Below, one piece after another: positions 5,104 to 43,500 of a DNA stretch of 53,321 bases. Both the position numbers and the translations under genes were made by a program. Below the pieces are notes generated by a model, which had not been told where the DNA came from, did not search any database, and was given only the letters and a program-made list of their open reading frames with translations. Each line of letters opens with the position of its first letter. Position 1 is the stretch's first letter. Origin of the DNA: a virus (taxonomy: Duplodnaviria > Caudoviricetes); the IMG/VR virus record IMGVR_UViG_3300031463_000010, positions 1-53,321 of that record, one strand, 5' to 3'.

Positions 5104-5340
5104 ATGGTGAAAAAGTGGGCACAGAAAGTCGACCTTGATGAGGGAAGCCTGACAGCGCTGGGGTGGCCAAGTGCGTCCAAGATTGCAGGGAAAATATCGA
5201 GTGGTAAGGTAACCTATAAAGAGGCCATCCAGAAGCTCGTGTTCATCGCAAATGTGAGCGGAAGGAAGAACCCAGAGCTGGCAAAGAGGGCAAGGGCTAT
5301 CATCGCAACACTGCGCAGGCAATTTGGTAAAGAGGACTAG
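5104..5340 (+). CDS. Small basic hypothetical protein
   Basis: ATG 1 nt after the holin stop codon; Lys/Arg-rich. Confidence 0.55.
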   Translation: MVKKWAQKVDLDEGSLTALGWPSASKIAGKISSGKVTYKEAIQKLVFIANVSGRKNPELAKRARAIIATLRRQFGKED

Positions 5341-5359
5341 GGAGTTTCCCTAGTCCTCT
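5331..5359. terminator. Perfect hairpin at the convergence of the two transcription arms
   Basis: AGAGGACTAGGGA-GTT-TCCCTAGTCCTCT; contains both convergent stop codons; no U-tract. Confidence 0.65.
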
Positions 5360-5559
5360 ACATATTCACAAAATGCAGGCCCGCCGCTGTTCACACTGAC
5401 ACGGCATGGGTCAAGGCGCGTGCATTTCTCACACGGAACGTACCGCCGTAACCTTCCGACATCCTCTATCCTGATACGAGCCCTAGGCTTGCGTCCATGT
5501 TCCACATTCCCTTCATTGTTGATCAGCTCAATCAGTTCGCATACGAGCGTGCCACTCAT
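5350..5559 (-). CDS. Small Cys-rich hypothetical protein coupled to the Tas gene
   Basis: ATGA overlap with the 5556..6341 stop; CEKC...C...C motif. Confidence 0.6.
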   Translation of the reverse strand: MSGTLVCELIELINNEGNVEHGRKPRARIRIEDVGRLRRYVPCEKCTRLDPCRVSVNSGGPAFCEYVED

Positions 5560-6341
5560 ACATACTCAACTCCTGTGTGTCCTAGGACTGCTTGGACATA
5601 TGGAGGCGTGACCGGAAGTCCCTCGCATTCCCTCCATTTGACCCATAGGTTACATAGGAAAATCTTTATCATAGCACGCATTGCCATCATGTGGATGTGA
5701 CCATCCGTGTACTTATGACGGTGCTTCTTCCCAGTACACGCGCTTGCTGGCCTGTTGCATTGTTCACACCACGGCGATCGGTACTTGTTGTGTATGCGCT
5801 CTTTGTAATCGTAGTAGAAACTTACCCATGGCTCTGTCTGGCTGCGTAGGAACTGCTGGCCTATAAGGTAGCATGTGGACTTCAGCGTGTTATTGTAATG
5901 CATCGGCTCTCCAGCCCTCCGGTACTCGCGCTTCCCATCCACGACAGCATATCCGGCGTAGCGCCACAGCGCAGACACTGTCCTGAACTTGCCAATATCG
6001 TCTATTTGTGCGAGCAGCTGGGCTGCAATACCACCAGCGCGCAGTCCATTGAACTGAGTTATCCACGGCCACACTGCGATCTCAGACGCCGCGTTGATCA
6101 TGCTCTCCCGTGCATACTCGACTGCGTCCTCCAGGTTTAAGCGCTTGATCATTGCAGCCTCAAACTCGGCTTCCAGTGCACACGCCCCCCGCTCGACCGC
6201 ACTAATGCGTGCCTTGTGCGCCATCAGCATCCGGTACAGTTCGCGCCAGAAGCTGAATGCCTGGAACAGCTGCGCATGCTTCCTTGGTTTTAGTCTGCGT
6301 GATGTACTGACGTTTGCGTTAGGTAGAAGTTCTTCTTCCAT
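5556..6341 (-). CDS. tasA: TIGR-associated TasA-like protein (IS110/Nop-domain RNA-binding protein, no nuclease domain)
   Basis: N-terminal coiled coil; GLRAGGIAAQLLAQIDDIGKFRTVSALWRYAGY and HIHMMAMRAMIKIFL match the IS110 C-terminal/Nop fold; no DEDD RuvC or HNH domain and no IS110 catalytic SG loop; AAGGAGG RBS; the array lies immediately upstream. Confidence 0.8.
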   Translation of the reverse strand: MEEELLPNANVSTSRRLKPRKHAQLFQAFSFWRELYRMLMAHKARISAVERGACALEAEFEAAMIKRLNLEDAVEYARESMINAASEIAVWPWITQFNGLRAGGIAAQLLAQIDDIGKFRTVSALWRYAGYAVVDGKREYRRAGEPMHYNNTLKSTCYLIGQQFLRSQTEPWVSFYYDYKERIHNKYRSPWCEQCNRPASACTGKKHRHKYTDGHIHMMAMRAMIKIFLCNLWVKWRECEGLPVTPPYVQAVLGHTGVEYV

Positions 6342-6372
6342 CTTTACCTCCTTCCGTACTTGTTATGTAATA

Positions 6373-6633
6373 TTATTCGCACTCCCTCAGCGGTCGTCAC
6401 GTGGCGCGTGGCTCGCATGTGCGTCCTGGGTTCCATAAGCTCTTAGGCTCGCATACAAGATGTGGGTTCCATCCTTGTTATGGCTCGCACAAACCATCCG
6501 GTTTTCACACCTCCCTGGCTGCAACGCGCTGCGCGAGCTCCATCATGCTCTACGACACGCACTGTGTCGATGGGTTTCATGGCCGCTATGGCTCGCATGG
6601 AGGAGGTGGGTTCCACTCCCGTCTTGGCTCGCA
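6373..6633 (-). ncRNA. TIGR-type dual-spacer guide RNA array (7 x 36 nt)
   Basis: On the - strand, edge repeat TGCGAGCCA and loop repeat TG(G/A)AACCCA alternate with variable ~9-nt spacers. Edge repeats start (+ coordinates) at 6373, 6409, 6445, 6481, 6516, 6553, 6589 and 6625. Confidence 0.88.
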
Positions 6634-6644
6634 TAGCACCGGCA

Positions 6645-8981
6645 TCACTCCAACCTAAGCCCATGCATTGAACCCCAGGAACTGCCATACTCCGCCTCTG
6701 CCGACCACGGTATTTCCGGGTAAATGCGCTCCGCGGCCTTGACCAATGCGTTTTCAACGATCTTGGCTGCTTCTTCCTTCCTATCCTCTGGCACCTCCAC
6801 AACTATCGAGTCATGAACAAGTATAACCGGAAACGCCCCAATCTCCAACAGCGCGTCAAAGCAGTCTATAAACGCCTGTAGTGTAAGATCACTTGCCGCG
6901 CCCTGGATCGGGTAGTTTATTGCCCCCTTGCGTACCTCATCGCTGTTCCCAGAAAAGATGAATGGAAAGTGAAATCTCCTTCCAGCACGGGACTGCAAAT
7001 AGCCTTGTGTACGCGCACGCTCGTACTGCTCCGATCGCCACTCGACCGCACGCTTCAACACCTCATTGAAGCGTGCGACATACTGCTTCACCACACTACG
7101 CGGGACTTGAAACACTTGTGCGCTCGACTCCTCCGATCCACCATACAGCCATGAGAACACAAACCGCTTTGCATGCGACCGCTGCGTCTTGGTATATCCC
7201 TCACCAAACATTGCACGTGACACCTCACCATGCACATCCCCGCCGCGCTGGTACACGTCAATCAAGAATGGATCACCACTCTCACATGCAGCAACACGCA
7301 ACTCCCACTGTGACCCGTCCACCGCAACCAGGACATGCCCGGGGGGTGCGGTGAATAAATCACGCACCAACTTCCCATAAAATCCTTCTTCCTGCTCGTC
7401 TGCACGTGGTATGTTCTGGATGGATGGGTTCGCCGCGGACAACCTTCCTGTCACCGTCCCTGTCTGACGCCACTGCGGATGCACACGATACAAGCCGTCT
7501 GGTGTTGGGCGTGCCAACTCCATGAGCGGGTGCAGGTATGAGGCAAGCATCTTCTGCACGCGCCGATAGCGTAGCAGTGTGCGCACGAATGGATTTTCCT
7601 GATCCATCTGATTCAATACCGCAGCCGCGGTGCTGTTCTCTGAGAGCCCAGTGACGTGTTTCCTTGGCATCTTCAGCGTTTCATACAGGTAGTTGGCACA
7701 TTGCTGAGATGAGTTCGGGTTGAACGATGGTATGCCTGTTATCGCCTGCAGCTGCCTACACAGCATGGCTTGTTCGTCCTCAAATTGTTTTATGAGTTCC
7801 TTGAGCTTGGGCATGTCAACACACACACCGTGATGTTCCATGCGCGTAAGTCCAACCGCAACGCGTGGCAGGAAGTCAAAGACAAACCCGTCCCTGCCTT
7901 GCTTTCCAAGCACTGTACGGAGATGATCGTGTAGTAAGTAGGTGTAATAGAGGTCGCGGGACAAGTATTCCCCAATCTCCTGTTTGGATACGTCCGCCCA
8001 GCGTCCACGCACAATGACTCCCTTACTCCAGTCTGTGGCATCAAAGAAGAATGCGGATAACTCCTTCAAACCCAATGGGACGTGCTCGTTCCACGCATGC
8101 GCAAGTGGGAGTGTGTCCCATCCAAACGCTATGGGCACCCCATACCTTGCCAGGTGGACGAAGTCGAACTTCACGTTATGTCCACCTAACTTAGCTGCAT
8201 GCTTACGCACCATCCAAGCGATGTGTGGGATCATGTCCACGACACGCTCTTCAGGTATTACGTATGCATAGAACGCACGGCCATTGATCGGGACACCGAT
8301 TCCGACCATGATGATGCGTGCGGTGCTTGGGTCCAACGTGTCCGTCTCGATGTCGATCACGACGTACGGGGCGCGTGCAATGGCGTCGTATGGGAATTTC
8401 TTCGGATCGTCTAGCCACACCGTCCGCAGGTGCATCTTTGGCTCATACGGCGAACGCCGCGCCAGCTTTGCAATCCCTTGGAGGAACAACGGCGACTCGG
8501 ACATGCGCCGCAGGATGTAAGCAGGGTGCGGAAGCGCGATCATCCACGCGCTCAGCTCGGAGCTGTACATCCATACGAACTGATCATCCACGCCGAACGC
8601 GTCCGCGGCCTCACGCCCGAACAACGCTATGTAACGCCGCCCTGCGGAGATGCCGTTGCGCACGACGTTGAGCAGTGCATCACGACATGCGTTGCGCGCC
8701 AGCGGGACGTCCAGCGTCTTCGCGTCCGTCGGAAGGCACAGCACGGAGTTCGTCATGAGCACACTGTCCGGATCAATGCCCACACAACACATGGCTTGGC
8801 GCAGGAGGTTTCCGCTCTGACCGACAAACGGACGTCCTAACACGACCTCTGTGCGTCCAGGGGACTCGCCGACCACCAGGATGTCCGATGTGTTTGAATC
8901 CGGTGGTATATATGGCGGCACGAAGTCACGATTCTTCAACGGACATATTTCACATCTTGCCAATGGATATTTTGCTTCCAT
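6645..8981 (-). CDS. polA: Family A DNA polymerase with N-terminal family-4 uracil-DNA-glycosylase domain and 3'-5' exonuclease
   Basis: UDG motifs CEICPL, VGESPG..E...GRPFVGQSG and HPAYILR; Exo I DIET; polymerase motifs TGRLS, DGSQWELR, AKRFVFSWLYG and VHDS; GAGGAG RBS before ATG 8981. Confidence 0.93.
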   Translation of the reverse strand: MEAKYPLARCEICPLKNRDFVPPYIPPDSNTSDILVVGESPGRTEVVLGRPFVGQSGNLLRQAMCCVGIDPDSVLMTNSVLCLPTDAKTLDVPLARNACRDALLNVVRNGISAGRRYIALFGREAADAFGVDDQFVWMYSSELSAWMIALPHPAYILRRMSESPLFLQGIAKLARRSPYEPKMHLRTVWLDDPKKFPYDAIARAPYVVIDIETDTLDPSTARIIMVGIGVPINGRAFYAYVIPEERVVDMIPHIAWMVRKHAAKLGGHNVKFDFVHLARYGVPIAFGWDTLPLAHAWNEHVPLGLKELSAFFFDATDWSKGVIVRGRWADVSKQEIGEYLSRDLYYTYLLHDHLRTVLGKQGRDGFVFDFLPRVAVGLTRMEHHGVCVDMPKLKELIKQFEDEQAMLCRQLQAITGIPSFNPNSSQQCANYLYETLKMPRKHVTGLSENSTAAAVLNQMDQENPFVRTLLRYRRVQKMLASYLHPLMELARPTPDGLYRVHPQWRQTGTVTGRLSAANPSIQNIPRADEQEEGFYGKLVRDLFTAPPGHVLVAVDGSQWELRVAACESGDPFLIDVYQRGGDVHGEVSRAMFGEGYTKTQRSHAKRFVFSWLYGGSEESSAQVFQVPRSVVKQYVARFNEVLKRAVEWRSEQYERARTQGYLQSRAGRRFHFPFIFSGNSDEVRKGAINYPIQGAASDLTLQAFIDCFDALLEIGAFPVILVHDSIVVEVPEDRKEEAAKIVENALVKAAERIYPEIPWSAEAEYGSSWGSMHGLRLE

Positions 8982-11403
8982 CGGATGCTCCTCGGAATGT
9001 TGGTGCAGGTGCATTCAGTCCCATCTCCGACGCCTTGTCGACGTCGATTCCGTAGTAAATCCCGCCTTGGAAATTCATTGGTGGTAAGATGTACTGTCCA
9101 ATACGTTCCTCCAACTGTGACCTCAGGACGTTGATGTCGGGAAGCGAGCTGCGGAAACGACACAGCCAATGACGTGCTGCAGTAAGGCTAAACCAAAGCA
9201 CCCGATGGGCGCTGTCCCATATTGCTGCATTCATCGCCCAGCTCTCACCGCTGCGGAACGCATGCATGAACAACTCCACCAACTCGTCCGCAGACGTAAG
9301 CGACCCCAGGTTCTTGTTGAACGCGGTGGAATAACAGTGTTCAACATACATTTCCATGAACTGCTCAGGGTCGACCAAGAAATCAACACCCTCACGCTGT
9401 ATGAACATTGAGAACAGCTTCAACCCTACCAAGAGAATTGCCGCGCTGTGGGACATGCGCTCGAACTGGATATAACGCTGGGCGCTCAGAAGCGCAACGC
9501 GTACCATCGGCTTGATGTCGTCGACACCCAATTCAAGCGACCACCTTATGTAGTGCCACGCGAAACTGCGCAGCATGTGTTCCATATCCACCAGGCGGCG
9601 GAAGTTCTCACGAAACGTGTCGTTGTGCAGATCGCTCTGATTCAGGCGCACAGGGACACAGCGCTCCCGCAGCGCACTGTCTGCGAAGACACCTTCACAG
9701 TCCATAGCAACTGGCGCTTCCAAATGAAACGCCACGACCGAAAGATCGGCACGTCCACGAAGGTCATAGGTGTCATCGTACATACGCCGCAGTGTGGATT
9801 CCACCGCGTCAGCGTTTGGCGACGTCGGGCGGAACTCTGTCAACCACACCGGCGTGCTGCGTGACGCGGACAGTGTGGACAGCAGCGCGAACTGTGTCAC
9901 ATCGGCACTGATCGGATTGCCAGGCGCGCCGACGAGCGGCATGGCCAGGTGACGCAGTGTGGAGGTCTTTCCGCTGCCACGCTGACCATGGATAAGGAGT
10001 ATCGGGAAGCGCACACCACACATTTCCAATATCGTCTTGAACGGCGTCGCCAGCGTCCACCCCATCACCGGAAGCACCACGTGATCATGATTTATCCCCA
10101 TGATCACGCCGAGCATCTCGTGCAGGTCGAATGTGTCCCTATTCACCAGGTTTCCGATCAACGTCCCCAACGAGAAACGCGCGGCGCGATCCCAGAATAC
10201 CGACACCTTCGATCCCGTTGGATAGACGATCCAATCCTCTGGTGACAGAACGAAAAGCCGCGACCCGCCAATGTCATATCGCCCGGTGCTACGGCTCAAG
10301 AGCACACGCTGACGCGGGGCACAGCTGACCAGCGCCGACCAGTAAACCGTAGCGTCCTTGTCCGATCCAAGCCAGGCGCATGTGCGAATGCCGTATCGGC
10401 TCAGGAACGCGTTCACCGAACGCCGCGTTTCAAAGTCCTGTTGCGTCGCGGCCACCTCGCGCTTGCCCATAGACCATATGATCTCTAGCATCAGCCCAGC
10501 CTCATCACCATTGGCATCGTAGAGCACACCACGAGCCAGCGCTGCAAAGTTGGCCAGCAGCTGTGCATTCTTACTCCTACGCAAGTCCATTGGCGGGACA
10601 TCACGCTTCGGCGGAATCTCGTCGTCGGAATCCACTACATCGTCATCATCATCACTGACCTCCATGGACTCACCACTCATACGGATGGCTTTGTCCACCG
10701 TCACACTGATGTAGTGTTCACCTTCCTCAGACGCCTTGTCACTGATGAGCGGCATTACCATCTGGATGGTGTCTCTGGAGACCCCCCATGCGGAAAGACG
10801 CAGTGCGATCCGGAAGTCCCGCTCGCTGCGCGACAATCCTGCAGGTATCTGCCATATCCTGCGATCGTATTCACCGAGTCGGCGCAGATCGTCAATCGGA
10901 TACACCCGTTCCGGGTAAAACCCAATGACCTCTACAAGTCTTTGGGGGTTATACTTTGTGTTGTAGGTGTTGGGGACGCGCAGGATGCGCGAAGCATCCC
11001 ACGCGTTCCCGGGCTCACCTGCGTGGCGCGCGACGGCCTTGTTCGCCCCTTCGATGAGTTCAGATGACGGGGTGAACTCGGTCAGCATCCAGTAAAGGTG
11101 ATACCGCCCGTCGCCGCCGCTACTCACGATGATGGACGGTGGGAGCATGACCTTAGGAATGGAATCGCCCCCAACGTCGTAGTCTAACCATACAACGGAA
11201 GCCCCGATCACCGACGTGCGGTGTGCGTCGGGGGCACTGTGCACACCAGGGCTGAAGTACACATCACGGCTGCGTGCACCAGCTGGTGGATAGTCCAGCT
11301 GCAGCAGGTCGCGTACTGTGACAAACTCTGGACGGCGCAGTGCCCCAACACGCACGTAGCCGTCGAGGGGAGCACCACGAAAGACGGCCTCGAAGAAGTT
11401 CAT
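8950..11403 (-). CDS. Primase-helicase (RepB-like AEP primase plus P-loop helicase)
   Basis: VWLDYD, PSIIVSSGG..YHLYW, DASRILRVPNTYN and SRSERDF motifs; Walker A GQRGSGKT. Confidence 0.85.
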   Translation of the reverse strand: MNFFEAVFRGAPLDGYVRVGALRRPEFVTVRDLLQLDYPPAGARSRDVYFSPGVHSAPDAHRTSVIGASVVWLDYDVGGDSIPKVMLPPSIIVSSGGDGRYHLYWMLTEFTPSSELIEGANKAVARHAGEPGNAWDASRILRVPNTYNTKYNPQRLVEVIGFYPERVYPIDDLRRLGEYDRRIWQIPAGLSRSERDFRIALRLSAWGVSRDTIQMVMPLISDKASEEGEHYISVTVDKAIRMSGESMEVSDDDDDVVDSDDEIPPKRDVPPMDLRRSKNAQLLANFAALARGVLYDANGDEAGLMLEIIWSMGKREVAATQQDFETRRSVNAFLSRYGIRTCAWLGSDKDATVYWSALVSCAPRQRVLLSRSTGRYDIGGSRLFVLSPEDWIVYPTGSKVSVFWDRAARFSLGTLIGNLVNRDTFDLHEMLGVIMGINHDHVVLPVMGWTLATPFKTILEMCGVRFPILLIHGQRGSGKTSTLRHLAMPLVGAPGNPISADVTQFALLSTLSASRSTPVWLTEFRPTSPNADAVESTLRRMYDDTYDLRGRADLSVVAFHLEAPVAMDCEGVFADSALRERCVPVRLNQSDLHNDTFRENFRRLVDMEHMLRSFAWHYIRWSLELGVDDIKPMVRVALLSAQRYIQFERMSHSAAILLVGLKLFSMFIQREGVDFLVDPEQFMEMYVEHCYSTAFNKNLGSLTSADELVELFMHAFRSGESWAMNAAIWDSAHRVLWFSLTAARHWLCRFRSSLPDINVLRSQLEERIGQYILPPMNFQGGIYYGIDVDKASEMGLNAPAPTFRGASDGSKISIGKM

Positions 11404-34406: not shown

Positions 34407-34594
34407 TAAACGATGTGAAGCGTGGTTATCGCGGCGCACTTGAGGCATGGTACAAGATTCTGCGCACCTCATTGGAAGCACAGCAGCGCTCTGAGCCTGA
34501 ACGCCCGAGCAATGCACCTCCGCGCGTTCCAAAATTCATTCTGCGTGATTATTTGGTGAGGTTACAGGATGAAGTTTACCGGAACCGGCGGTGA
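34403..34594 (+). CDS. Hypothetical protein
   Basis: ATGA overlap upstream; overlaps the start of the giant gene. Confidence 0.5.
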   Translation: MINDVKRGYRGALEAWYKILRTSLEAQQRSEPERPSNAPPRVPKFILRDYLVRLQDEVYRNRR

Positions 34595-37500
34595 AGGTAA
34601 AACACCCTCTCCATCATCACCTACTCCTCCTCCACCACCTCCGCCTGTCCAACCTGGTGCTGGGGCGATTAGTGGTGGTGGTACGCCGATGCGCACGATT
34701 ATACGCGGGCTTCCTGAAAGATCACCATGGCTAGATTACCGTTGGGGAAGTAACGTCGCACCGGGTCATTGGAGGCCACATCCACGCTACATTGGTAATG
34801 AGTACCAGATGAAGCGCTGGATGGCAAACCGCTATGACATTTATCCAGAGGGGAAGCCACAGACATACATAGAACTCCCTGCTGGTGAGACGTTGGAGAA
34901 GGATGTCACAACGCGTGCTCCAACCGGCAGTGAGGTAACCTCTGCCGCGCTTGTCCAGTCTGGCGCTTCATCTCCTACGGTGCAGTCGGAGTCTGTGCTT
35001 GCCAAGCCATTGGAAGAAACGCCGGGAAGCGGTGTTGAGGCGTTTGGGTGGGCCTCAGCGGTGAAGGACGTCGTCCCCACGTTCTCAGGTGTTGTCGGGA
35101 AGGCAGTGTGGGAACTCTTATTCAACGGTGGTATATCCAAGGCATTCCATTATCTTACGACACCTACACCATTGGAAAAGGAGCCGGAGGTACCCAAGCC
35201 TAAGGAAGAAGAAACCCGTGAGCCTGAGAATCCAGTCGCCGAGCATGGATGGAGTACGGACTCTTCGCCGCTCAACTACCTCAAGGAATGGGCGGTCGAC
35301 GCATGGAATGACATAAAGCGTCGTGTGACTGAGGGGATTTCCAATGTCACAGCTACGACGCCACAGACCACACCTCCCCCACAAGTACGGCTTGGCGCAG
35401 CCGCGCCTGAAGAACGTATTAAGAGCAGTGAGGAATTTCAAAAACAGTGGATGAATCAGAGTTCGTCCGGACTGAATCTGGACTGGGTCATTCCAACGGT
35501 CACGGACGCGGTGATGAAAGTGTTCGATGCCTCCGTGCGCATAGCGGAGACGGGGTTCGGCTCGATCCTCTACGGGAACAAATCTACAGAGTGGGGGGTG
35601 GACACGCCAGAGAAGCGCCGTGCGTTCAGTGCAGCACTGGGATCAACGTACAGCGGCGAAATTCGCATGCGTGCTCTCTACAACGCCATCCTGCGTGAGG
35701 GGCCGAACGTCTCATCGGCGCGCATTGAAGAGCTGCGTGCACTCTATGAGGACCCGCTCAAGGAATCCATTGGAAGGATGGTTTTCGATCCGATCAACGT
35801 CTTGCAGTTTGGCATTGATGCCATTCGACACTCCTCTGCCATTGCACGGCACCTTGAGCTCATGAGCCCATTGCTTACTGAGGGTGTGAAGATACCGAAG
35901 GGGCTTGATGAGGCCGCCCGTTCCGAGTTCATCCTCAAGAACCTTGCGCCGACGAGCGAGGTAGAGCAGTGGTTGCATGACCTTGCAACTGTGAAAGGAC
36001 AGATGCGCGCTGCGTCCGGGCCTGTGGATAAGTTCATGGCGCTCATCGCTCCACGCGTCAAGGACACACAGGTGTACAAGACGGTCTCTGACGTCTCGCA
36101 GATGGCAGAGTTTATTTCTGGTGTGATCTCCGAACGTGTCAAGGCGCGCATGTTGGTAGACCCTGACATCGTGGCGCGTGGAATCAAAGAGGGCACTGAA
36201 GAGTTTGCCAAGGAGTATGTGTCACGCTTCCAGGCGGTGATGTCGTTGGTGGCTGAGAACATGGTCAAGCTGGCGTCCGACGACACTGAGGAGGTCCGTG
36301 CCGCTGCGGTTGTGCTTGAGCAGCTTGGATTAGGGCATGTTCCTACCTCGCGATCCGGACGCACGCTTGGGCTGATACTGCGTCGCATGGTCACAGATGA
36401 TGAAGGCAATATCGGTGATATCAGCAAGGCGTTGCGGCTTAACAAGGTCATGTCCCCGGATGATGTGGCAAGCCTATGGACAAGAAAAATGCACCGTGTG
36501 TTGGAGGAACTGATTCCAACATCATCATGGGAGAAGTCGTTATCCCCGGTGCGTAAGGTCCTACGCAAGCGTGCAGCGTTGGACAGGATATTCGCCCGCC
36601 TGTTCATGGGAATGAATGCTGGCTACGCCGTGAACAACATGGCGAGCAATCTTATGTCTATCGCAATGGTAGGGTACAGCCCGTTCGCATCGCTGCGTGC
36701 TGAGGAAATCGCACAACGCGTTGGTGCACGCATATTTGCAGCCTCACGTGGGATTGGTGCTGCGGAGGAGCTGGCGAAGCCAGGTATAACCACCATCGGA
36801 CTTGTGTTAGGACAGCGCGGTGAGCAGTTAGCGTCCGAGATCGTTGTTGGGCAGGCCTTTGAGCGCGCTGTCAATCAGTTGTCCAAGGATGCCACAGCGG
36901 TCATATTTGCACAGATGCCGGATGATCTGGCGTCGGTGTTCAAGAGCGACCCGCAGGCGATGAAGTGGTTGCAAGGGCGCGTTGCGCGTGTGCTACGGAT
37001 GGGGAGTGAGTGGCCACAGCACTTGCAGAAGGAGATCATGGACTATCTATCCAAGATGGGTGCGTCGGTCACTCCCTCAAGCATATCAGTCTCGTGGGCG
37101 CCGTGGAAGCAGCTTCCGCCAGAGATTGAGCAGGCGATGCACGACCTGGGAATGACCGACCTGGCACGGGCGCTTGAGTTGTCGGCGCTGACCAGTTCGT
37201 CTCCAGACGAGTATATCGACCAGCTCAACGCGTTGAACGCACATCTGCGGGATCATTTGAAACGCATCGCTGATATGCAACCGCCATCTCCTGGCCCTGT
37301 TCCAGGATCAATCTCTGCGGAGGCGGTAGATATTGCAGCGTCTGCAGCGGATCACGCCACAAGTGAATTGGCCAACCTTAATGAGCCCACGATCGCGAAG
37401 GCAATTGAGGAATTGGCTGTCTACGTCAGTGATCAAGACAACAAGCTGCGTGAGTTGTATGCGCGTGCACAGATGAAGGCGTTGACAGCGGCTCCCAAGG

Positions 37501-40500
37501 ATCAATTGCGTGCTAACCACATCATCGAGGAGCTGGCCAACGACCAGCGCGATGTAATCAATCAAGCGACAGCGGCACAGCGTGAGCTGTTGGTGAGGTA
37601 TCTGGCCAGCCCGGTTCCGGACAGTCCTGAGGAGGCCGCAGCGAAACTGCATGATTTCATGCAGGACATTAAGAAAATCTACGACGACGTTGTTGACCAT
37701 ATGGAGAAGGCATATGCCAGCCGCCTGTTCAACGAGATCGCGGATATAACTGGATTTGACCTTCCATATGACATGTTGGTGGCTGCCAGTGATGAGTACA
37801 TCGTCGATTATTCCATCATGGAGCACGCCTACCAAATGAACTTGATCACTGGCGCTGTGCCCAAGTACAGGAAACCGCTCCCAGAGGATGTGCTTGCCCA
37901 ATTCCATAAGTTTGTGGTTGATGCGGTGGGTAAGCCGTATGGTCAGTTAAGTTTGGATGAGAAGGTAAAACTCCTCAATATTATGCACCGCACGATAACG
38001 CCGAATGCGCCTTCATTCATGAATGCGAAGGATGTGCGGCGTTCTTTGAGGTTGCTTGGTCGTGACTTCAAACGGCTTGTCAGGAGCGTCCCACACGACC
38101 TGCGCATCAATGTGGAGATGCCACAATTCAACTCGGCGTTGGGTAAGTGGGAGGCAGTGGGTGTTCCTGCCGTCACCACCGCACCTCCTAGGCATATTCC
38201 ACCAGGACAGATTTCGACCGCCTCGTCCGCACTTTCTGAGTTGAACATGGGCAAGGGCGAGTTGTTGGGTGTGTGGTCGGTGCGCCCCACCGGAAAAGCT
38301 TCGAAGTTTTCATCCTTCAAGTTGGAGAACAGCTATCCGGCGCAGGTGGCAGACAAGCTACGCGATAGTTACACGCAGAAGACCAGGGTGTGGAGCTTCG
38401 CGGTATACAAGGTTGATGATGATCGCTACGTGATTATCAGTCCGATGCCGGGTCTTGATGGGACGCATTCACAGGCGGTCTTGAGTATGATCAGCGAACT
38501 AGACCTGCCTGCGAACGCAGAGGTAACATGGTATGCCTGCACTCCAGCCATTGAGGACACATACGTGATTCGGACTGGGAGTGTACATGATTTGCTCCAT
38601 GGGAAGATGCAAGAGTTCAAGAGCGCTCCGGCGATAGGGAAGGCTCCTAAGGAGAAGGTCATTCATCTGACGGAAGAGGGTCCTCCTCCACTTCAACAAC
38701 CGATCGAGTTTCCTGATGTTATAGTCATAAGAGCATGGAAAGATGACAAACCGCCGCCTGCTCTCATACACGCATTCGAGAATGGGCATGTCATCCCATT
38801 CGCGTCGACCGACGTCGAAGGATACCACTTCTTTGGGATAGGTGATGCCGCAGGTGACTTCAGCAAAATCGTTGATGCAATGCGCAATAAGCTTGGCACT
38901 AGACCAGGTAAAGTCGTGTGGGGGGTAATCCACAAGAACGGTGTTGTTCTTCTGGGCAGTGAATGGTATCTCTCCGATAAAGTTTTGGTTCCACCGGTCA
39001 GGCACTACCTGAAAGAATATTTTGGTGACCTTCCAATACTAAATCTACCTGGTATGCGTTTGTCATCTGATTTCTCCGAGGGTGCTAAAGTAGCGGATTT
39101 GGTGGCCGCGGAGATTCCTAACTGGACAGGGTTCACCTACGCGCAACGCGACACCCCAATGGATATGGAGCGTGCGGCACGTATCGTGAAAAGTGCGCTC
39201 GCCGGGCAGTTTGACGATCCCAACGTGAAGATGTTGATCATAAACGGCAAGACCGGGGACGCGTATGTCTCCGGTGTGTTGGACGTTCCGCTCATGGACA
39301 TGCAGGATATCTACATCGCCTGGAGCACACCGGACGGAATATTGATCACATCCTCATGGGATAAACGCCGAGAAGCCATACAGGCACTCCTAAAGACCGG
39401 CGTTGGGGAGGACGTTCCGTTCGTATGGTTTGGCCCGCAGGGGAATGGAACGATAAGCCTGTACTACAACACCATTATAAATGTTGGAATTTCCCGCCCG
39501 AGCACGGTGTACCGCGGCTTGCCTCGTGACGTCACGATTGACTTCTCCGGTGTTGTGTTAACCCCGTATGGGAAGTTCGACTCTTATTTCCACTCCGTGG
39601 TGACCGGCGTGCGTGACATAGACGCACTCCGTGAACTCTTCAAGGCGGATTTGGGTATGCCTGTTGAGATGTTCTACTCCTACAACGCCGGGAGCAAGAC
39701 GTTGCGGGTCATGTCCGGTGAGAGGCGCACCGTCAGCGCTGACACACTCGCAGGTTGGATCGAGAGTCTGAGGGAGGTCCCGTTCCCGGAAGACACAGTT
39801 GTGGAAATACCCGAATACGGTGTGCGTATTGGCCTCAAGGAATTGTTGGATAGAAAGCTCGCTGACGATCCAAGCGCGCCGTTGTGGTTGGGCATGGTGG
39901 ATCGCATGAACGTCCCTGAGTTGGGGACTCAAGCGTACTTCTATCGCACGTCCGACAGGGCGGTCACTGTTACATTGCTTGGTGGTGATGTTGAACTGGA
40001 GGATGCGTACGACATCATCGGGGCCAACCCAGACCTGATCCCGAACGCCAGTAAGTGGCGTGTGTTGGTTGGGGAACGTGACGGTGGCTTTCGTACCATT
40101 GCGGATGACATCAAGTTCCCACCGATGACCCATGCTGACCTAAGCGTTGAGTCCATCAGCGAGTCTGCCCCATATCACTCACGGGCCAGGGGATCATGGG
40201 GATGGGGTGTGTTTGAGATGGATAAAGGAATCCTTACAATGCGCAGTGACGTCTACCTCGCTGATCTAAACAATGACTTCGCGGTGCGTCATTTGAGGCC
40301 TGTACCTGATTCGTCAGAGAGGGTCTTGCGCATCCCGATCGTGCCTGGGTTGGTCGGTCCGGAGATATACATTCCGGAGAACTTCCCGATCGTTGAGGAG
40401 AAATTTTACTACGATACAGTTGACAAGTTGAGGATCACACGCGTCAAGGACGTGCCACGCTACTTCAACGTCGTCGAGATGCGTGACATAATGGACGATC

Positions 40501-43500
40501 TCCTCGGACGCACTGCGAACAGCTACGTCATGATCGATTCTGACATGATGCTGGGTCAGGCGGCGAAGCGCAGCCAGCATATGTTCCGACTGGACCGCTA
40601 TGGTGCGTTCATGTTTGAAGATCACATCGTATACCCTGGCATGGTGTCGGCCCACGTGGACAACGTCGCAACACGCATCACTTTGGTTGGGAACGCTGCC
40701 GACATTCGGCGTGTGCTTGAACGCATTCCTGATGATATTCCATATCGTTTCCGCGTCGTCGACTATGCCATGGCAATCACCTACGATAGATCGATTGATG
40801 ACATGTGGGACATGTCACGCGAGGATGCACTGCGGTACCTTGACGATATCATCAAAGGCCCACCGAAGAAGGTGTTGTTCGATTCTCGCGTTGTGGAGCC
40901 AAGGCTGATCGCAGACGAGAACAACAATCCTATCGCATTCTCATACGATGATGTGCTTGAGATTGTAGGGGAGCGTCAATACAGCGGTGGCACGATGACG
41001 AGCGACGATGTCGTGTCACTGGTGGTCGATAATGGGAAGGCATGGTTTTACGTTGGAAATGTTCCGTATAGTGATTATGTACGTGACTTAACCAGTGCCG
41101 AACGCATCTTACATCCTCGTGCCGTTTTGATGGGAAGGTATTCGACGCTCACGAAGCGGATGAAATGGGTGACGGTGCGGGATCATCCGCTGGATAGAAA
41201 CGTTATAGAGGCGATCGCGTTGGCGGCGAATGAGAATCCGGCCATACTGGATGATTATATCGTCACTCTCGATGGGAACTGTGTTGAGGTCAATGAGCTG
41301 CTCCTGCGCAGCATGCACGTGGACAAGGAACCGCTCAGCCCTGGAATGGCTCGTGGTATCAAAGAGATGAAGGAGGACATAGCAGAGCTGCGGCGCGTCA
41401 TGAACACCGCGCTCGTTGGGCCGGAGCCGCAGCAGATAGAAGGGTTCTTTAGTTCACTTAGATGGATACCGCAGTATGTCCGCTCCAAAGACAACCGAAT
41501 GATGCGGTGGGCGGCGGTTCTCATGGACGAGAACACCTTTCATCCGAATAAGCGCCTGCTTGTGGTGTTTAGTGAGAAGCCAATCGAGGCCGAAGACCTG
41601 GTGATGCATGGGAGAATTCATGGCACTCCACGCGCAGTCATAACCGTGGAACGCGGACCAATCAGCGATGGAGTGAATGTTATGTTCGTTGACAAGCAGC
41701 CGCTTCCTATTGATCTGCTGAACATTGGATTGGGAGGGAATAAAGAGGTATCCATCAAAATGGCTCCGGTGGGTGCACCTGGGGCGTCAACTTATGGGAG
41801 CACTCCGCTCGGCATGTCATTTACGATGCGCGTCCCGTCGACGCTTACCGATGAAGAATGGAAATGGTTCACCGGTAACTTGGAACACATACCGGTATAC
41901 TCACGCATCGCAATACTTCCAAAGGAGGAGGAAAAGCACGTCATCGGTGTGTTTCCAATGTACTGGAGGTGGCAGGATCGCGGGATTGAAGTACCCGCCT
42001 CTTACACAATGCCGTGGTGGGAGATATCCTACGCGATGAATACTGATGTGGACAACCTGATCATGTTGGAGATGGTCGGGCAGAACCACATGCGTTTGAT
42101 GCCTTCCAAGGTACCGGTCGAGCGTGCGATCGAGGTGCTTAAGGATATCGGTTTCCCGCGCTTCGGCGTCATCCTTGAGGTTCCGGACGTCGGTGTGCTG
42201 TATCCTGAGCAGGGGACGATATCTGACTTCGAGAAGGCCATAGCACAGATTGAGAATAACTTATTGAATCTTGATCTCAACAATCCGCAGACATGGTATC
42301 TCGCCCGCAATGTTGAGCTGGAAGGTTGGAAGAAGAAGACCATTGCAATGCTCAACATGGAGGAGGCGGTCGCCGCGCGCAAGGAAGTCGAGAGGATTGT
42401 AGAGGACTCCATTGCCAGTGAGCGCCTGAGTAAGGAATATGTGATGGGCATGCTGGACTCCATGGCAAGGGCATGGGGTGACACATATCAGCAGCCAAGC
42501 ATTTATTGGTATCAGTTGTTCAAGCTCAGGGTCAAGGAGTTGTACACCGGCGCCGCCGGGACGTTTGTTGCTGACTTCAAGAGCGTTGCGGAGAACATGC
42601 CGTTCCTGCGTGGGTTAGTGACGCTTGATTCGCGATACGGCACGAACCCGGATACCCTTATCCATGAGCTGATGCATTTCGCGGAGCAATGGCTACCGTT
42701 TGACGATCGGCTTGTCCTGTCTGAATACTTCGGAATCTCACCGTATGCGTGGGATCGTGACGCTGTAGAGGCGTTTGCGGAGCTAGGAGTATCTTACCTG
42801 ACAAAACATAAAGACCTACCAGAGAACCTCCTCGGTGTGTTCGAGCGTGTGTTCGATTTCATCCGCAACATGATAAGACACGCGATGCGTTGGCTGACGA
42901 AGCAACCAGCACACACCATTCCGCCAGAGGTCATGGCAGTGTACGACCGCGTGCTCGGTGTGTTGGAGGCATATCCGCGTGCACAGGAACACATGCGTGC
43001 TAAAGCTGAGGTGCTGCGCAGGGTCATTGAGGACGCCAAGGCACTATACAGCAAGGATGCATCATTACTACAGCGGCTGTACACGATGGATAGCATCTAT
43101 GATGATCTGGCACGGTATGACAGTCTTGAACCAGGTGGCGAGCGTGCAGTGGATGAGCTGCTCAGCCGCTTTGCTGTGCGCTCTGAGGCTGCCCCTGAGG
43201 ATAGTGTTACAGAGATGGCGCGTGAGGCAGCGGAGGAGATGCCACGTCCAGGAGACACATCACCAATACCTCAGACGCCATTTGCGTACTTCAAGGATGA
43301 GTCCGGAAGGATTCACTATGTGTTAACGCCAGATCGTCCAGAATGGTTGGGCAATGAAATTACGAAGGAAGATTACATAAGTTACCTGAACGACATTGAG
43401 GCACGCGTTGCACACAACCCCTATGCCAAGGCATTGGTGGACTCGATGCGCGACGCGATCAATAATCCGAAGCCGCTTCCCGGACCTGGCGCGTTGGATC

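What the first reader, a model, noticed from the sequence alone, without database searches (positions are those of the whole stretch)
5556..6633. Phage-encoded RNA-guided system: 36-nt dual-spacer array plus Nop/IS110-domain protein (TIGR-TasA type)
Seen: between the polA stop (6645) and the RBS of 5556..6341 lie seven 36-nt units. On the coding (-) strand each reads TGCGAGCCA-[spacer A]-TG(G/A)AACCCA-[spacer B]. Spacer pairs 5'->3': AGACGGGAG/CCTCCTCCA, TAGCGGCCA/TCGACACAG, TAGAGCATGA/CGCAGCGCG, GGGAGGTG/GATGGTTTG, TAACAAGGA/CATCTTGTA, AAGAGCTTA/GGACGCACA, CGCGCCACG/CTGAGGGAG. All spacers differ, so this is neither a satellite repeat nor a CRISPR array. The downstream protein has the IS110 C-terminal/Nop RNA-binding fold and no RuvC or HNH domain. 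Established: TIGR-Tas systems (Faure et al., Science 2025) have edge/loop-repeat arrays processed into 36-nt tigRNAs with box C/D-like motifs. Their two spacers read opposite DNA strands without a PAM, and TasA is the nuclease-less form. Inference: this phage makes a programmable DNA-binding RNP at the end of its replication operon, perhaps to silence host or competitor-phage loci. The system class is known; this instance and its targets are probably not.
Basis: partly seen in the sequence, partly recalled or inferred. Interest (0 to 1): 0.95.

Follow-up and report, generated by a model that had tools for sequence, protein, structure and literature searches.

The report
Phage TIGR-TasA guide-RNA locus
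This phage carries a genuine but ordinary example of the recently described TIGR-Tas system, a small nuclease-free protein with an array of two-part guide RNAs, and its near-identical relatives carry visibly reshuffled arrays.

Summary
On the minus strand, 6633..6382, seven 36-nt units sit between the polA stop and the start of a 261-aa gene. Their repeats are TGCGAGCCA (edge) and TG(G/A)AACCCA (loop). Four units are canonical, two (units 3-4) are degenerate, and the last has a divergent loop repeat. The pattern gave 4 matches against 0 in 100 shuffles.

The protein scores above the curated cutoff of NCBIfam's TIGR-Tas model. Its model (pLDDT 90.9) best matches TasR and TasH structures. It aligns only to their Nop part, has no room for a nuclease, and keeps the Tyr/His pre-tigRNA processing dyad. 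It is therefore a dual-repeat TIGR-TasA.

A 96%-identical protein is already in the 2025 catalogue, and TasA was shown in 2026 to be an RNA-guided repressor. The scan has found TIGR-Tas loci before on other DNA.

No target was found in the phage itself, 66 related loci, viral contigs or cellular genomes.

Additions: position 9 of each spacer is a fixed purine, leaving 8+8 variable bases. Relatives 92-94% identical in flanking DNA carry 3, about 11 or about 14 units. Spacers diverge at about the neutral rate while repeats are conserved.

The parts
6382..6633 (-). [quoted passage not shown]
   Evidence: Pattern test: 4 matches against 0 in 100 shuffles. The same repeats flank tas in relatives: 308 units, all on the tas strand.
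6562..6633 (-). Units 1 and 2, canonical (TGCGAGCCA / TGGAACCCA or TGAAACCCA)
   Evidence: Both have counterparts in L059. Spacer B of unit 1 is identical in L058 and L059.
6490..6561 (-). Units 3 and 4, degenerate: box C changed to TCG or CCG, with 1-nt length changes that cancel over 72 nt
   Evidence: The start of degenerate unit 3 is shared with L059.
6418..6489 (-). Units 5 and 6, canonical (unit 6 edge repeat ends CCT)
6382..6417 (-). Unit 7, the tas-proximal unit, with divergent loop repeat TGACGACCG. It is conserved, with point changes, in L058 and L059.
6377..6381 (-). Truncated terminal edge repeat TGCGA
   Evidence: Arrays ending in a 3'-truncated edge repeat are described in PMC12045711, section 4.
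6347..6351 (-). GGAGG ribosome-binding site of tas, 5 nt upstream of the ATG
   Evidence: sequence
5556..6341 (-). tasA: 261-aa nuclease-free Tas (Nop-domain) protein
   Evidence: NCBIfam NF052498, 149.7 bits against cutoff 100. PDB profile hits to TasR and TasH. AF2 pLDDT 90.9. Foldseek top hits 9mty and 9w04. pN/pS 0.10-0.16.
6087..6275 (-). Residues 23-85: long N-terminal helices. They correspond to the coiled-coil dimerisation region of Tas proteins.
   Evidence: Helices 23-50, 58-67 and 70-85 in the model. The correspondence is inferred from the TasR structure description.
5721..5768 (-). Residues 192-207: C-x2-C-x6-C-x4-H insertion, zinc-knuckle-like and variable in the family
   Evidence: Cysteines present in 9 of 37 rows of alignment A1
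5577..5600 (-). Codons of Y248 to H255: the Tyr/His dyad equivalent to SpTasH Y289/H296, the pre-tigRNA processing residues
   Evidence: The alignment places Y289 and H296 on this motif. The residues are named in PMC13421893 (passages). Y is present in 32 of 37 rows and H in 31 of 37 rows of A1.
6645..9014 (-). Upstream gene: family-A DNA polymerase with N-terminal UDG and 3'-5' exonuclease domains. No terminator-like site lies between it and the array.
   Evidence: 0 terminator-like sites
5350..5559 (-). Downstream 69-aa ORF overlapping the tas stop. Found only in the two close relatives, so it is not a general Tas partner.
   Evidence: tblastn hits in 2 of 66 loci, L058 and L059; no Pfam or PHROG hit

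Best explanation
This is a dual-repeat TIGR-TasA locus at the end of a tailed phage's replication gene module.

Shown here: a 36-nt-period array with box D (UG) and box C (CCA) at the ends of two alternating repeats; an adjacent nuclease-free Tas protein with the Tas fold; and a retained Tyr/His processing dyad.

Inferred from the published family:
1. The array is transcribed with polA and tas.
2. A TasA dimer binds the precursor at the repeats.
3. Y248 and H255 cut inside the edge repeats to release 36-nt tigRNAs. Four or five of the seven units look competent.
4. Each RNP binds an unwound DNA site in which spacer A pairs with one strand and spacer B with the other (8+8 variable bases plus a purine each).
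5. Having no nuclease, it blocks transcription or replication at that site rather than cutting.

The targets are unknown. They are not in the phage's own genome.
For: Array:
- (4 matches against 0 in 100 shuffles).

Protein:
- NCBIfam TIGR_Tas model E 1.1e-43, 149.7 bits against cutoff 100, residues 39-237.
- The A1 profile hits TasR 9mty_A residues 111-322 (E 1.1e-50) and TasH 21kl_A residues 80-308 (E 3.2e-33), in both cases downstream of their N-terminal region.
- The AF2 model has pLDDT 90.9.
- Foldseek top hits are TasR (TMq 0.69, rmsd 2.2) and TasH. IS621 is weaker at E 1.8e-3.
- Y248 and H255 align with SpTasH Y289 and H296.

No N-terminal extension is possible. The ORF starts at the first start codon after a stop, and all three sense frames of the array have stops.

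Family association:
- 308 units with these repeats were found in 44 of 67 sequences, all on the tas strand and 0 on the other strand.

Selection:
- tas pN/pS is 0.10-0.16, like polA at 0.09-0.15.
- Repeats in homologous units differ at 6 of 108 positions, against 22 of 108 for spacers.

Expression hint:
- A 741-nt contig in an RNA-library run (X13) runs from the polA 3' end through a 3-unit array variant into tas.
- No terminator-like site was found in 5200..6900.

Published function:
- TasA binds 36-nt tigRNAs (PMC12045711, section 5).
- TasA represses transcription in an RNA-guided way (bioRxiv 10.64898/2026.09.09.750476, section 12).
Against: - No target was found by any search: searches are all at chance level.
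- Two of seven units are degenerate and a third has a divergent loop repeat. Part of the array may give no functional guide.
- Spacers of homologous units diverge at 22 of 108 positions, against 218 of 1466 four-fold sites (Fisher p 0.13). There is no sign of purifying selection on individual guides.
- The RNA evidence is a contig from an RNA library of a 90-95%-alike relative. DNA carry-over is not excluded, and a contig cannot show processing.
- Processing, RNP formation, dimerisation and DNA binding were not and could not be tested here.
- Pfam's Nop family did not match. The only Pfam hint is Transposase_20, below cutoff, and Foldseek listed no Nop5 chain among its significant hits. The Nop label therefore rests on the papers.
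Confidence: 0.85

Rival explanations
1. The locus is a decaying relic. The array is eroding and its guides no longer match anything, so TasA does little or nothing in this phage.
For: - Units 3-4 are degenerate, unit 7 has a divergent loop repeat, and unit 6 has lost the A of box C.
- Spacers drift at about the neutral rate.
- No target was found.
- A close relative keeps only 3 units.
Against: - tas is under purifying selection as strong as that on polA: pN/pS 0.10-0.16 against 0.09-0.15.
- Repeats of homologous units are conserved (6 of 108 differences) while spacers are not (22 of 108; Fisher p 0.0019, pooled and not independent).
- The Y/H dyad is intact.
- Another relative has about 14 units.
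- Failure to find 16-18-nt targets is expected without the host genome (discussion of 10.64898/2026.09.09.750476).
Confidence: 0.1
2. TasA regulates the phage's own genome, acting on its transcription timing, replication or packaging through imperfect self-matches.
For: - The locus is embedded in the replication module next to polA.
- Faure et al. and Xu et al. both list lifecycle regulation among the possible roles.
Against: No self-site with 2 or fewer mismatches exists in either half-site order with gaps of 0-2. There are 2 sites at 3 mismatches, against 0-6 in 20 spacer-shuffled controls. The contig may be incomplete, because ORFs run off both ends.
Confidence: 0.04
3. The gene is an IS110-family transposase remnant and the repeats are unrelated to it, or the repeat region is translated as a 12-aa repeat protein on either strand.
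For: - PHROG 4285 is labelled 'transposase' (E 7.5e-37).
- There is a weak Pfam Transposase_20 hit (E 0.061).
- An 85-aa antisense ORF at 6401..6658 is open across the array.
Against: - Transposase_20 scores 14.2 bits against a cutoff of 21.3, and no DEDD/RuvC-like N-terminal domain hit appears. The protein has only about 22 disordered residues before its first helix.
- All three sense frames of the array have stops.
- Open antisense frames are explained by composition: 11 of 14 related arrays have one, against 8.6 +/- 1.6 after shuffling spacer letters, with 32 of 300 shuffles reaching 11.
- In L059 the antisense strand is broken into several short ORFs.
- Array length differs between close relatives: 3, 7 and about 14 units.
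Confidence: 0.01

Closest known systems
Dual-repeat TIGR-TasA systems (for example FpTasA of Flavonifractor plautii; Faure et al. 2025, PMC12045711)
   Same: A solo Nop-domain Tas with no nuclease. An array of two alternating short repeats with two short spacers per 36-nt unit. UG and CCA boxes. The array is adjacent to tas on the same strand. A mobile-element host.
   Different: - The sequence relation to FpTasA itself was not tested, because no FpTasA sequence was used here.
- The array lies between polA and tas with no terminator.
- The middle of the array is degenerate.
- The protein has a C-x2-C-x6-C-x4-H insertion found in 9 of 37 relatives.
The 96%-identical protein (P0001 type) and the 58% relative (P0002) listed under one tree node in Table S1 of Faure et al. 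2025
   Same: Same clade, same length and same repeats. The loci of L058, L059 and L001 carry arrays with identical edge and loop repeats.
   Different: - The window's exact protein variant was not found in the held copy of the table, which is cut.
- Arrays differ in unit number and in most spacers.
TaTasR (PDB 9MTY)
   Same: The best sequence-profile and fold match over the Nop and coiled-coil part. The same UG...CCA box logic is described for its repeats.
   Different: TaTasR has an N-terminal RuvC nuclease (residues 1 to about 110) and cuts DNA. This protein lacks that domain.
SpTasH of Salicola phage CGphi29 (PDB 9W03, 9W04, 21KL)
   Same: - Phage-borne and dual-repeat.
- 8-nt spacers, as reported for SpTasH and as inferred here.
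- The Y289/H296 processing dyad is conserved here as Y248/H255.
   Different: SpTasH has an N-terminal HNH nuclease, which is absent here.
MbTasA and PlTasA (stem-loop TasA; Xu et al. 2026 and bioRxiv 10.64898/2026.08.11.744272)
   Same: Nuclease-free Tas that binds DNA through two spacers. MbTasA represses transcription.
   Different: [quoted passage not shown] This one is dual-repeat and keeps the loop.
IS110/IS621 bridge-RNA recombinases (PDB 8WT9)
   Same: A shared RNA-binding fold: Foldseek E 1.8e-3, TMq 0.52.
   Different: There is no DEDD catalytic domain and no bridge RNA. The Pfam Transposase_20 hit is below cutoff.

Membership tests
TIGR-Tas | Tas protein with the Tas-type Nop/coiled-coil fold | tested here: met
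   NCBIfam NF052498, 149.7 bits against cutoff 100. Profile hits to TasR and TasH, E 1e-50 and 3e-33. Model pLDDT 90.9; Foldseek top hits TasR and TasH.
TIGR-Tas | Adjacent array of two alternating 8-12-nt repeats separated by spacers of about 9 nt, 36-nt unit, on the tas strand | tested here: met
   Seven units at 6633..6382. 4 matches against 0 in 100 shuffles. 308 units in relatives, all on the tas strand.
TIGR-Tas | Box D (UG) at the start and box C (CCA) at the end of both edge and loop repeats | tested here: met
   Met in units 1, 2 and 5. Unit 6 has CCT in its edge repeat. Units 3, 4 and 7 have TCG or CCG in at least one repeat. The motif definition comes from PMC12045711, section 8.
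TIGR-Tas, subtype TasA | No HNH or RuvC nuclease domain | tested here: met
   The match starts at residue 111 of TasR and residue 80 of TasH. Residues 1-22 are not helical, with pLDDT under 50 for residues 1-8. No nuclease family appears in Pfam or NCBIfam. Stops in all sense frames upstream rule out a longer ORF.
TIGR-Tas, dual-repeat class | Conserved Tyr/His processing dyad on the C-terminal loop of the Nop domain | tested here: met
   Y248 and H255 align with SpTasH Y289 and H296. Y is present in 32 of 37 rows and H in 31 of 37 rows of A1.
TIGR-Tas | Array processed into 36-nt tigRNAs bound by Tas | not testable with these tools
   The only evidence is a 741-nt contig from an RNA library of a relative that spans polA, the array and tas. 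Contigs cannot show ends or processing.
TIGR-Tas | Tandem-spacer recognition of both strands of a DNA target | not testable with these tools
   No natural target was found. Binding needs a bench test.
TIGR-Tas | Symmetric homodimer through the coiled coil | not testable with these tools
   Long N-terminal helices are present in the model. The oligomeric state was not established here.
IS110-family transposase | DEDD (RuvC-like) N-terminal catalytic domain plus a Transposase_20 C-terminal domain | tested here: not met
   No DEDD domain hit. Transposase_20 scores 14.2 bits against cutoff 21.3.
Box C/D snoRNP Nop5/56/58 | Pfam Nop domain, with fibrillarin and L7Ae partners | tested here: not met
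   No Pfam Nop hit at E up to 10. No Nop5 chain is among the Foldseek rows printed, and those with E under 0.001 that are shown are TasR and TasH chains. Partner genes were not looked for.
CRISPR-Cas | A single repeat of 25-36 nt with spacers of similar size, plus cas genes | tested here: not met
   Two alternating 9-nt repeats with 9-nt spacers. None of the 33 phage ORFs scanned matched a PHROG labelled Cas. No Rfam match in 5200..7000.

The most novel reading that the evidence does not exclude
In this phage lineage the guide repertoire is made and remade in place, without any capture machinery. Units are lost and gained by recombination between the short repeats, and sometimes only one spacer of a pair is replaced. 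Units are duplicated in tandem, and spacers then diverge by point mutation at about the neutral rate while the repeats are held constant. Natural populations carry 3-, 7-, about 11- and about 14-unit alleles at one locus. If this is right, it bears on the question both TIGR papers call open, namely how TIGR arrays obtain new spacers. It would also mean that many guides at any one time have no target.
Probability: 0.3. Interest if true: 0.55.

Novelty: new member of a known kind. Interest (0 to 1): 0.28.

Why it matters
As an instance it adds little. The class, its mechanism and the repressor role of TasA are published, and a 96%-identical protein is already catalogued.

Its use is as a natural series. 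Three or four closely related phage genomes, 92-94% identical in flanking DNA, carry the same locus with very different arrays. This allows array evolution (unit loss, gain, half-unit replacement, spacer drift) to be read directly, a question the papers leave open.

The fixed purine at spacer position 9 also sharpens target searches for this clade to 8+8 variable bases.

Tried and rejected
1. The single-sequence AlphaFold model was unusable (pLDDT 46.2). It was replaced by the model built on alignment A1.

2. Nothing was found in the phage collection by blastn, nor in viral contigs with the single protein.

3. Self-targeting was rejected. There are 2 sites at 3 mismatches, against 0-6 in 20 shuffled controls.

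4. Cross-targeting was rejected. 268 spacer pairs of the clade were searched against the window and 66 loci. This gave 35 hits at 1 mismatch or fewer and 0 exact, against 16-46 in 30 re-paired controls.

5. Target scans of viral contigs, in the order A8-RY-rc(B8), gave:
   - unit 5: 4 loci (two distinct sites, AT-rich, without the exact junction);
   - unit 1: 7 loci (one exact 18-mer, in three near-identical contigs);
   - unit 2: 2 loci;
   - unit 6: 0 loci.
   The flanks of the two unit-2 loci (L078, L079) were not inspected.
   Exact 18-mers in genome contigs gave 4, 2 and 9 loci in scattered taxa, and no genome was hit by two guides. The reverse half-site order was not scanned in the collections.

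6. The idea that guides spell a ribosome-binding site plus a start codon was rejected clade-wide. Three of the four canonical window guides look like this in the A.rc(B) order. Across the clade, 31 of 267 pairs carry an SD-like word, against 31.4 +/- 1.1 after re-pairing. Five of 267 carry SD plus a start codon, against 3.8 +/- 1.7.

7. The 69-aa downstream ORF as a Tas partner was rejected. It occurs only in L058 and L059.

8. A host could not be inferred from cellular relatives. Six loci at 31-36% identity come from MAGs of several phyla. The phage has no tRNA genes.

9. Homodimer prediction gave no verdict: score 0.39 against a mark of 0.42, with controls at 0.00. It is not used as evidence either way.

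10. The half-site order could not be read from the papers' text. The reported 8-nt 3' overhang together with the 'C - 5' rule fits the order A.rc(B) by my own geometry. This is inference.

The comparison was redone from stored coordinates. That automated count leaves out the last unit (unit 7), whose loop repeat is too divergent for the detector. Its differences are visible only.

12. A test for excess half-unit replacement was not pursued. There are three cases, they are not independent, and they are too few for a test.
Full report
WHAT IS THERE

The window is a whole single-contig assembly of 53,321 bp. It belongs to a tailed phage. PHROG hits include the large terminase, major head protein, tail proteins, DNA polymerase, primase, helicase, a Sak4-like annealing protein and an exonuclease. 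ORFs run off both ends, so the contig may be incomplete or permuted.

The replication genes lie on the minus strand. On that strand the order is as follows:
- polA at 6645..9014, with UDG, 3'-5' exonuclease and family-A polymerase domains.
- Seven 36-nt units at 6633..6382.
- A truncated edge repeat TGCGA.
- GGAGG, then the ATG at 6341 of a 261-aa ORF (5556..6341).
- A 69-aa ORF that overlaps the stop of the 261-aa ORF.

THE ARRAY

Each unit reads edge repeat TGCGAGCCA, spacer A, loop repeat TG(G/A)AACCCA, spacer B.

- Units 1, 2, 5 and 6 are canonical. Unit 6 has CCT for CCA in its edge repeat.
- Units 3 and 4 are degenerate. Each repeat has 2-3 mismatches, box C is changed to TCG or CCG, and the 1-nt length changes cancel over 72 nt.
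- Unit 7 has the loop repeat TGACGACCG.

The edge-N9-loop pattern with up to 2 mismatches has 4 matches in the window and none in 100 dinucleotide-preserving shuffles. A chain detector found nothing in 200 shuffled windows. Rfam has no match in 5200..7000.

The repeats begin with UG and end with CCA. These are the box D and box C motifs defined on the TasR structure (PMC12045711, section 8, read).

THE PROTEIN

Family libraries:
- NCBIfam's TIGR-Tas model matches at E 1.1e-43, 149.7 bits against a curated cutoff of 100, over residues 39-237.
- Pfam gives only Transposase_20, below cutoff (14.2 against 21.3 bits).
- PHROG 4285 is labelled 'transposase'.

Homologues and structure:
- I found 102 homologues and aligned 36 of them with the query (A1).
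- The A1 profile hits two solved proteins. One is the 331-aa TasR of PDB 9mty over chain residues 111-322 (E 1.1e-50). The other is TasH (21kl and seven further entries) over residues 80-308 (E 3.2e-33). In both cases only the part downstream of the N-terminal region is matched.
- A single-sequence model was poor (pLDDT 46.2). With A1 the model reached pLDDT 90.9 and pTM 0.85.
- Foldseek against the PDB ranks TasR first (TMq 0.69, rmsd 2.2 A), then TasH chains, then the IS621 and ISCro4 recombinases, more weakly.

No nuclease domain:
- The first 22 residues are not helical, and residues 1-8 have pLDDT under 50.
- The array upstream has stops in all three sense frames.
- No nuclease domain can therefore be hidden upstream. 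This is a TasA.

Processing residues:
- SpTasH Y289 and H296 are reported as the catalytic residues for pre-tigRNA maturation (PMC13421893, passages seen).
- The 2026 preprint states that this dyad marks dual-repeat systems (section 10).
- In the alignment these residues fall on the motif Y-x6-H, which here is Y248 and H255. In A1, Y is present in 32 of 37 rows and H in 31 of 37.

Variable insertion:
- A C-x2-C-x6-C-x4-H insertion at residues 192-207 is present in 9 of 37 rows.

COMPARATIVE EVIDENCE

Searches with A1 returned 57 viral loci and 6 loci in cellular MAGs. A search with the protein returned 3 metagenome loci.

Allowing 2 mismatches per repeat, I found 308 units with these two repeats in 44 of 67 sequences (66 loci plus the window). 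All were on the tas strand and none on the opposite strand. Relatives with only 42-58% protein identity use the same repeats with unrelated spacers.

Across 267 unique spacer pairs, position 9 of spacer A is a purine in 97% and of spacer B in 98%. The variable part is therefore 8+8 nt. This matches the 8-nt spacers reported for SpTasH.

IS IT ALREADY KNOWN?

- The class was described in 2025. I read sections 4-8, 10, 24 and the figure legends of PMC12045711.
- TasA was shown to be an RNA-guided transcriptional repressor in a 2026 preprint. I read sections 5, 10, 12 and 13 of 10.64898/2026.09.09.750476.
- Table S1 of the 2025 paper lists the 58% relative.
- Under the same tree node it lists a protein 96% identical to this one. 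The motif occurs 6 times, and the passages shown match P0001.
- The window's exact variant was not found. The held file is cut, so this proves little.
- The supplementary PDF could not be read. It may hold the target geometry and array alignments.
- The scan's earlier notes show several TIGR-Tas loci already found on other genomes.

TARGETS

- The phage has no self-site beyond chance.
- No guide of the clade matches the window or any fetched locus beyond chance.
- Four scans of viral contigs and three of genome contigs gave 0-9 loci each. There was no convergence on a genome or gene, and the only homologous flanks were between copies of the same or closely related contigs. The flanks of the two unit-2 loci were not inspected.
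- Three of the four canonical window guides look like ribosome-binding sites. This is not a property of the clade.
- Xu et al. warn that short spacers give many false matches. Without the host genome, this negative result is weak.

ARRAY EVOLUTION

L058 and L059 have the same polA-array-tas-orf69 arrangement.

Flanking genes:
- The two genes flanking the array, polA and tas, are 94-95% identical in nucleotides.
- Their four-fold sites differ at 11-17%.
- pN/pS is 0.10-0.16 for tas and 0.09-0.15 for polA.

Array content:
- The arrays have 3 units (L058) and about 14 units (L059), against 7 in the window.
- Unit 1, unit 2, the start of degenerate unit 3 and the last unit have counterparts in the relatives.

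Divergence in automatically paired units:
- Spacers differ at 22 of 108 positions.
- Repeats differ at 6 of 108 positions.
- Four-fold sites differ at 218 of 1466.
- Spacers against repeats give Fisher p 0.0019. Spacers against four-fold sites give p 0.13.
- The comparisons are pooled and not independent, and unit 7 is not included.

Other observations:
- In three pairings one spacer of a unit is kept (0-1 differences) while its partner differs at 4-5 of 9 positions.
- Identical contigs have identical arrays: L001/L002 share 15 of 15 units and L007/L008 share 21 of 21. Pairs at 88-94% flank identity share few units: 0 of 7, 1 of 3, 2 of 9, 2 of 3 and 2 of 3.
- Tandem duplicates exist in 2 arrays. 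There are 4 near-identical pairs among 1,411 within-array pairs, all 36 or 72 nt apart.

Public runs:
- Four runs, labelled hot springs or microbial mat metagenomes, hold 90-95%-alike relatives.
- X2, X4 and the RNA-library run X13 carry the 3-unit allele.
- X7 carries an allele in which 288 nt replace 150 nt, which makes about 11 units.
- The X13 contig spans polA, the array and tas. This is a weak hint of co-transcription and no more.

A literature search for tigRNA together with spacer turnover, spacer acquisition, array expansion or duplication listed only the 2025 paper among its 12 shown rows of 389 (listing only).

VERDICT

The locus is an ordinary new member of a published family, and close relatives are already catalogued. 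Its mechanism is inferred from that family. Its targets remain unknown. The modest added value lies in the 8+8 refinement and in the natural series of array alleles.

Noticed in passing
L058:5853-5960; L059:5078-5569; window 6382-6633: Phages whose flanking DNA is 92-94% identical carry 3-, 7- and about 14-unit arrays at the same site. Sequencing runs add an allele of about 11 units. Only the first units and the last unit are shared, each with point changes in the spacers.
   Followed up: yes
L012:4766-4873; L009:4851-4922: Tandemly duplicated guide units: three identical copies in L012, and two copies differing at 1 of the 16 variable bases in L009. This suggests that arrays can grow by unit duplication.
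   Followed up: partly
308 units in 44 sequences (for example L001:3699-3950, L006:4585-4980): Position 9 of both spacers is a purine in 97-98% of 267 unique pairs (G 63-71%). The repeat is therefore effectively 10 nt, and each spacer carries 8 free bases.
   Followed up: yes
window 5721-5768 (residues 192-207 of TasA): A C-x2-C-x6-C-x4-H insertion, zinc-knuckle-like, is present in 9 of 37 aligned relatives and absent from the others. One relative was named after a zinc-ribbon ribosomal protein by its source.
   Followed up: partly
window 34569-45371 (+): A single 3,600-aa ORF lies in the structural half of the phage, with no Pfam family above cutoff.
   Followed up: no
window 6645-9014 (-): The phage DNA polymerase I carries an N-terminal uracil-DNA-glycosylase-superfamily domain ahead of its exonuclease and polymerase domains.
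   Followed up: no
window 6542-6570 and 6372-6400 (-): Two weak sigma-70-like sites lie inside the array. One spans spacer B of unit 2 and degenerate unit 3. The other lies at the last unit, just upstream of the tas ribosome-binding site. They are consensus matches only.
   Followed up: no
L071, L076, L077 (positions 301-318, or 221-238 in L077): An exact 18-mer equal to spacer A plus the reverse complement of spacer B of unit 1 occurs in three near-identical viral contigs, inside a glycine-rich stretch. This is within chance expectation for one lineage.
   Followed up: partly
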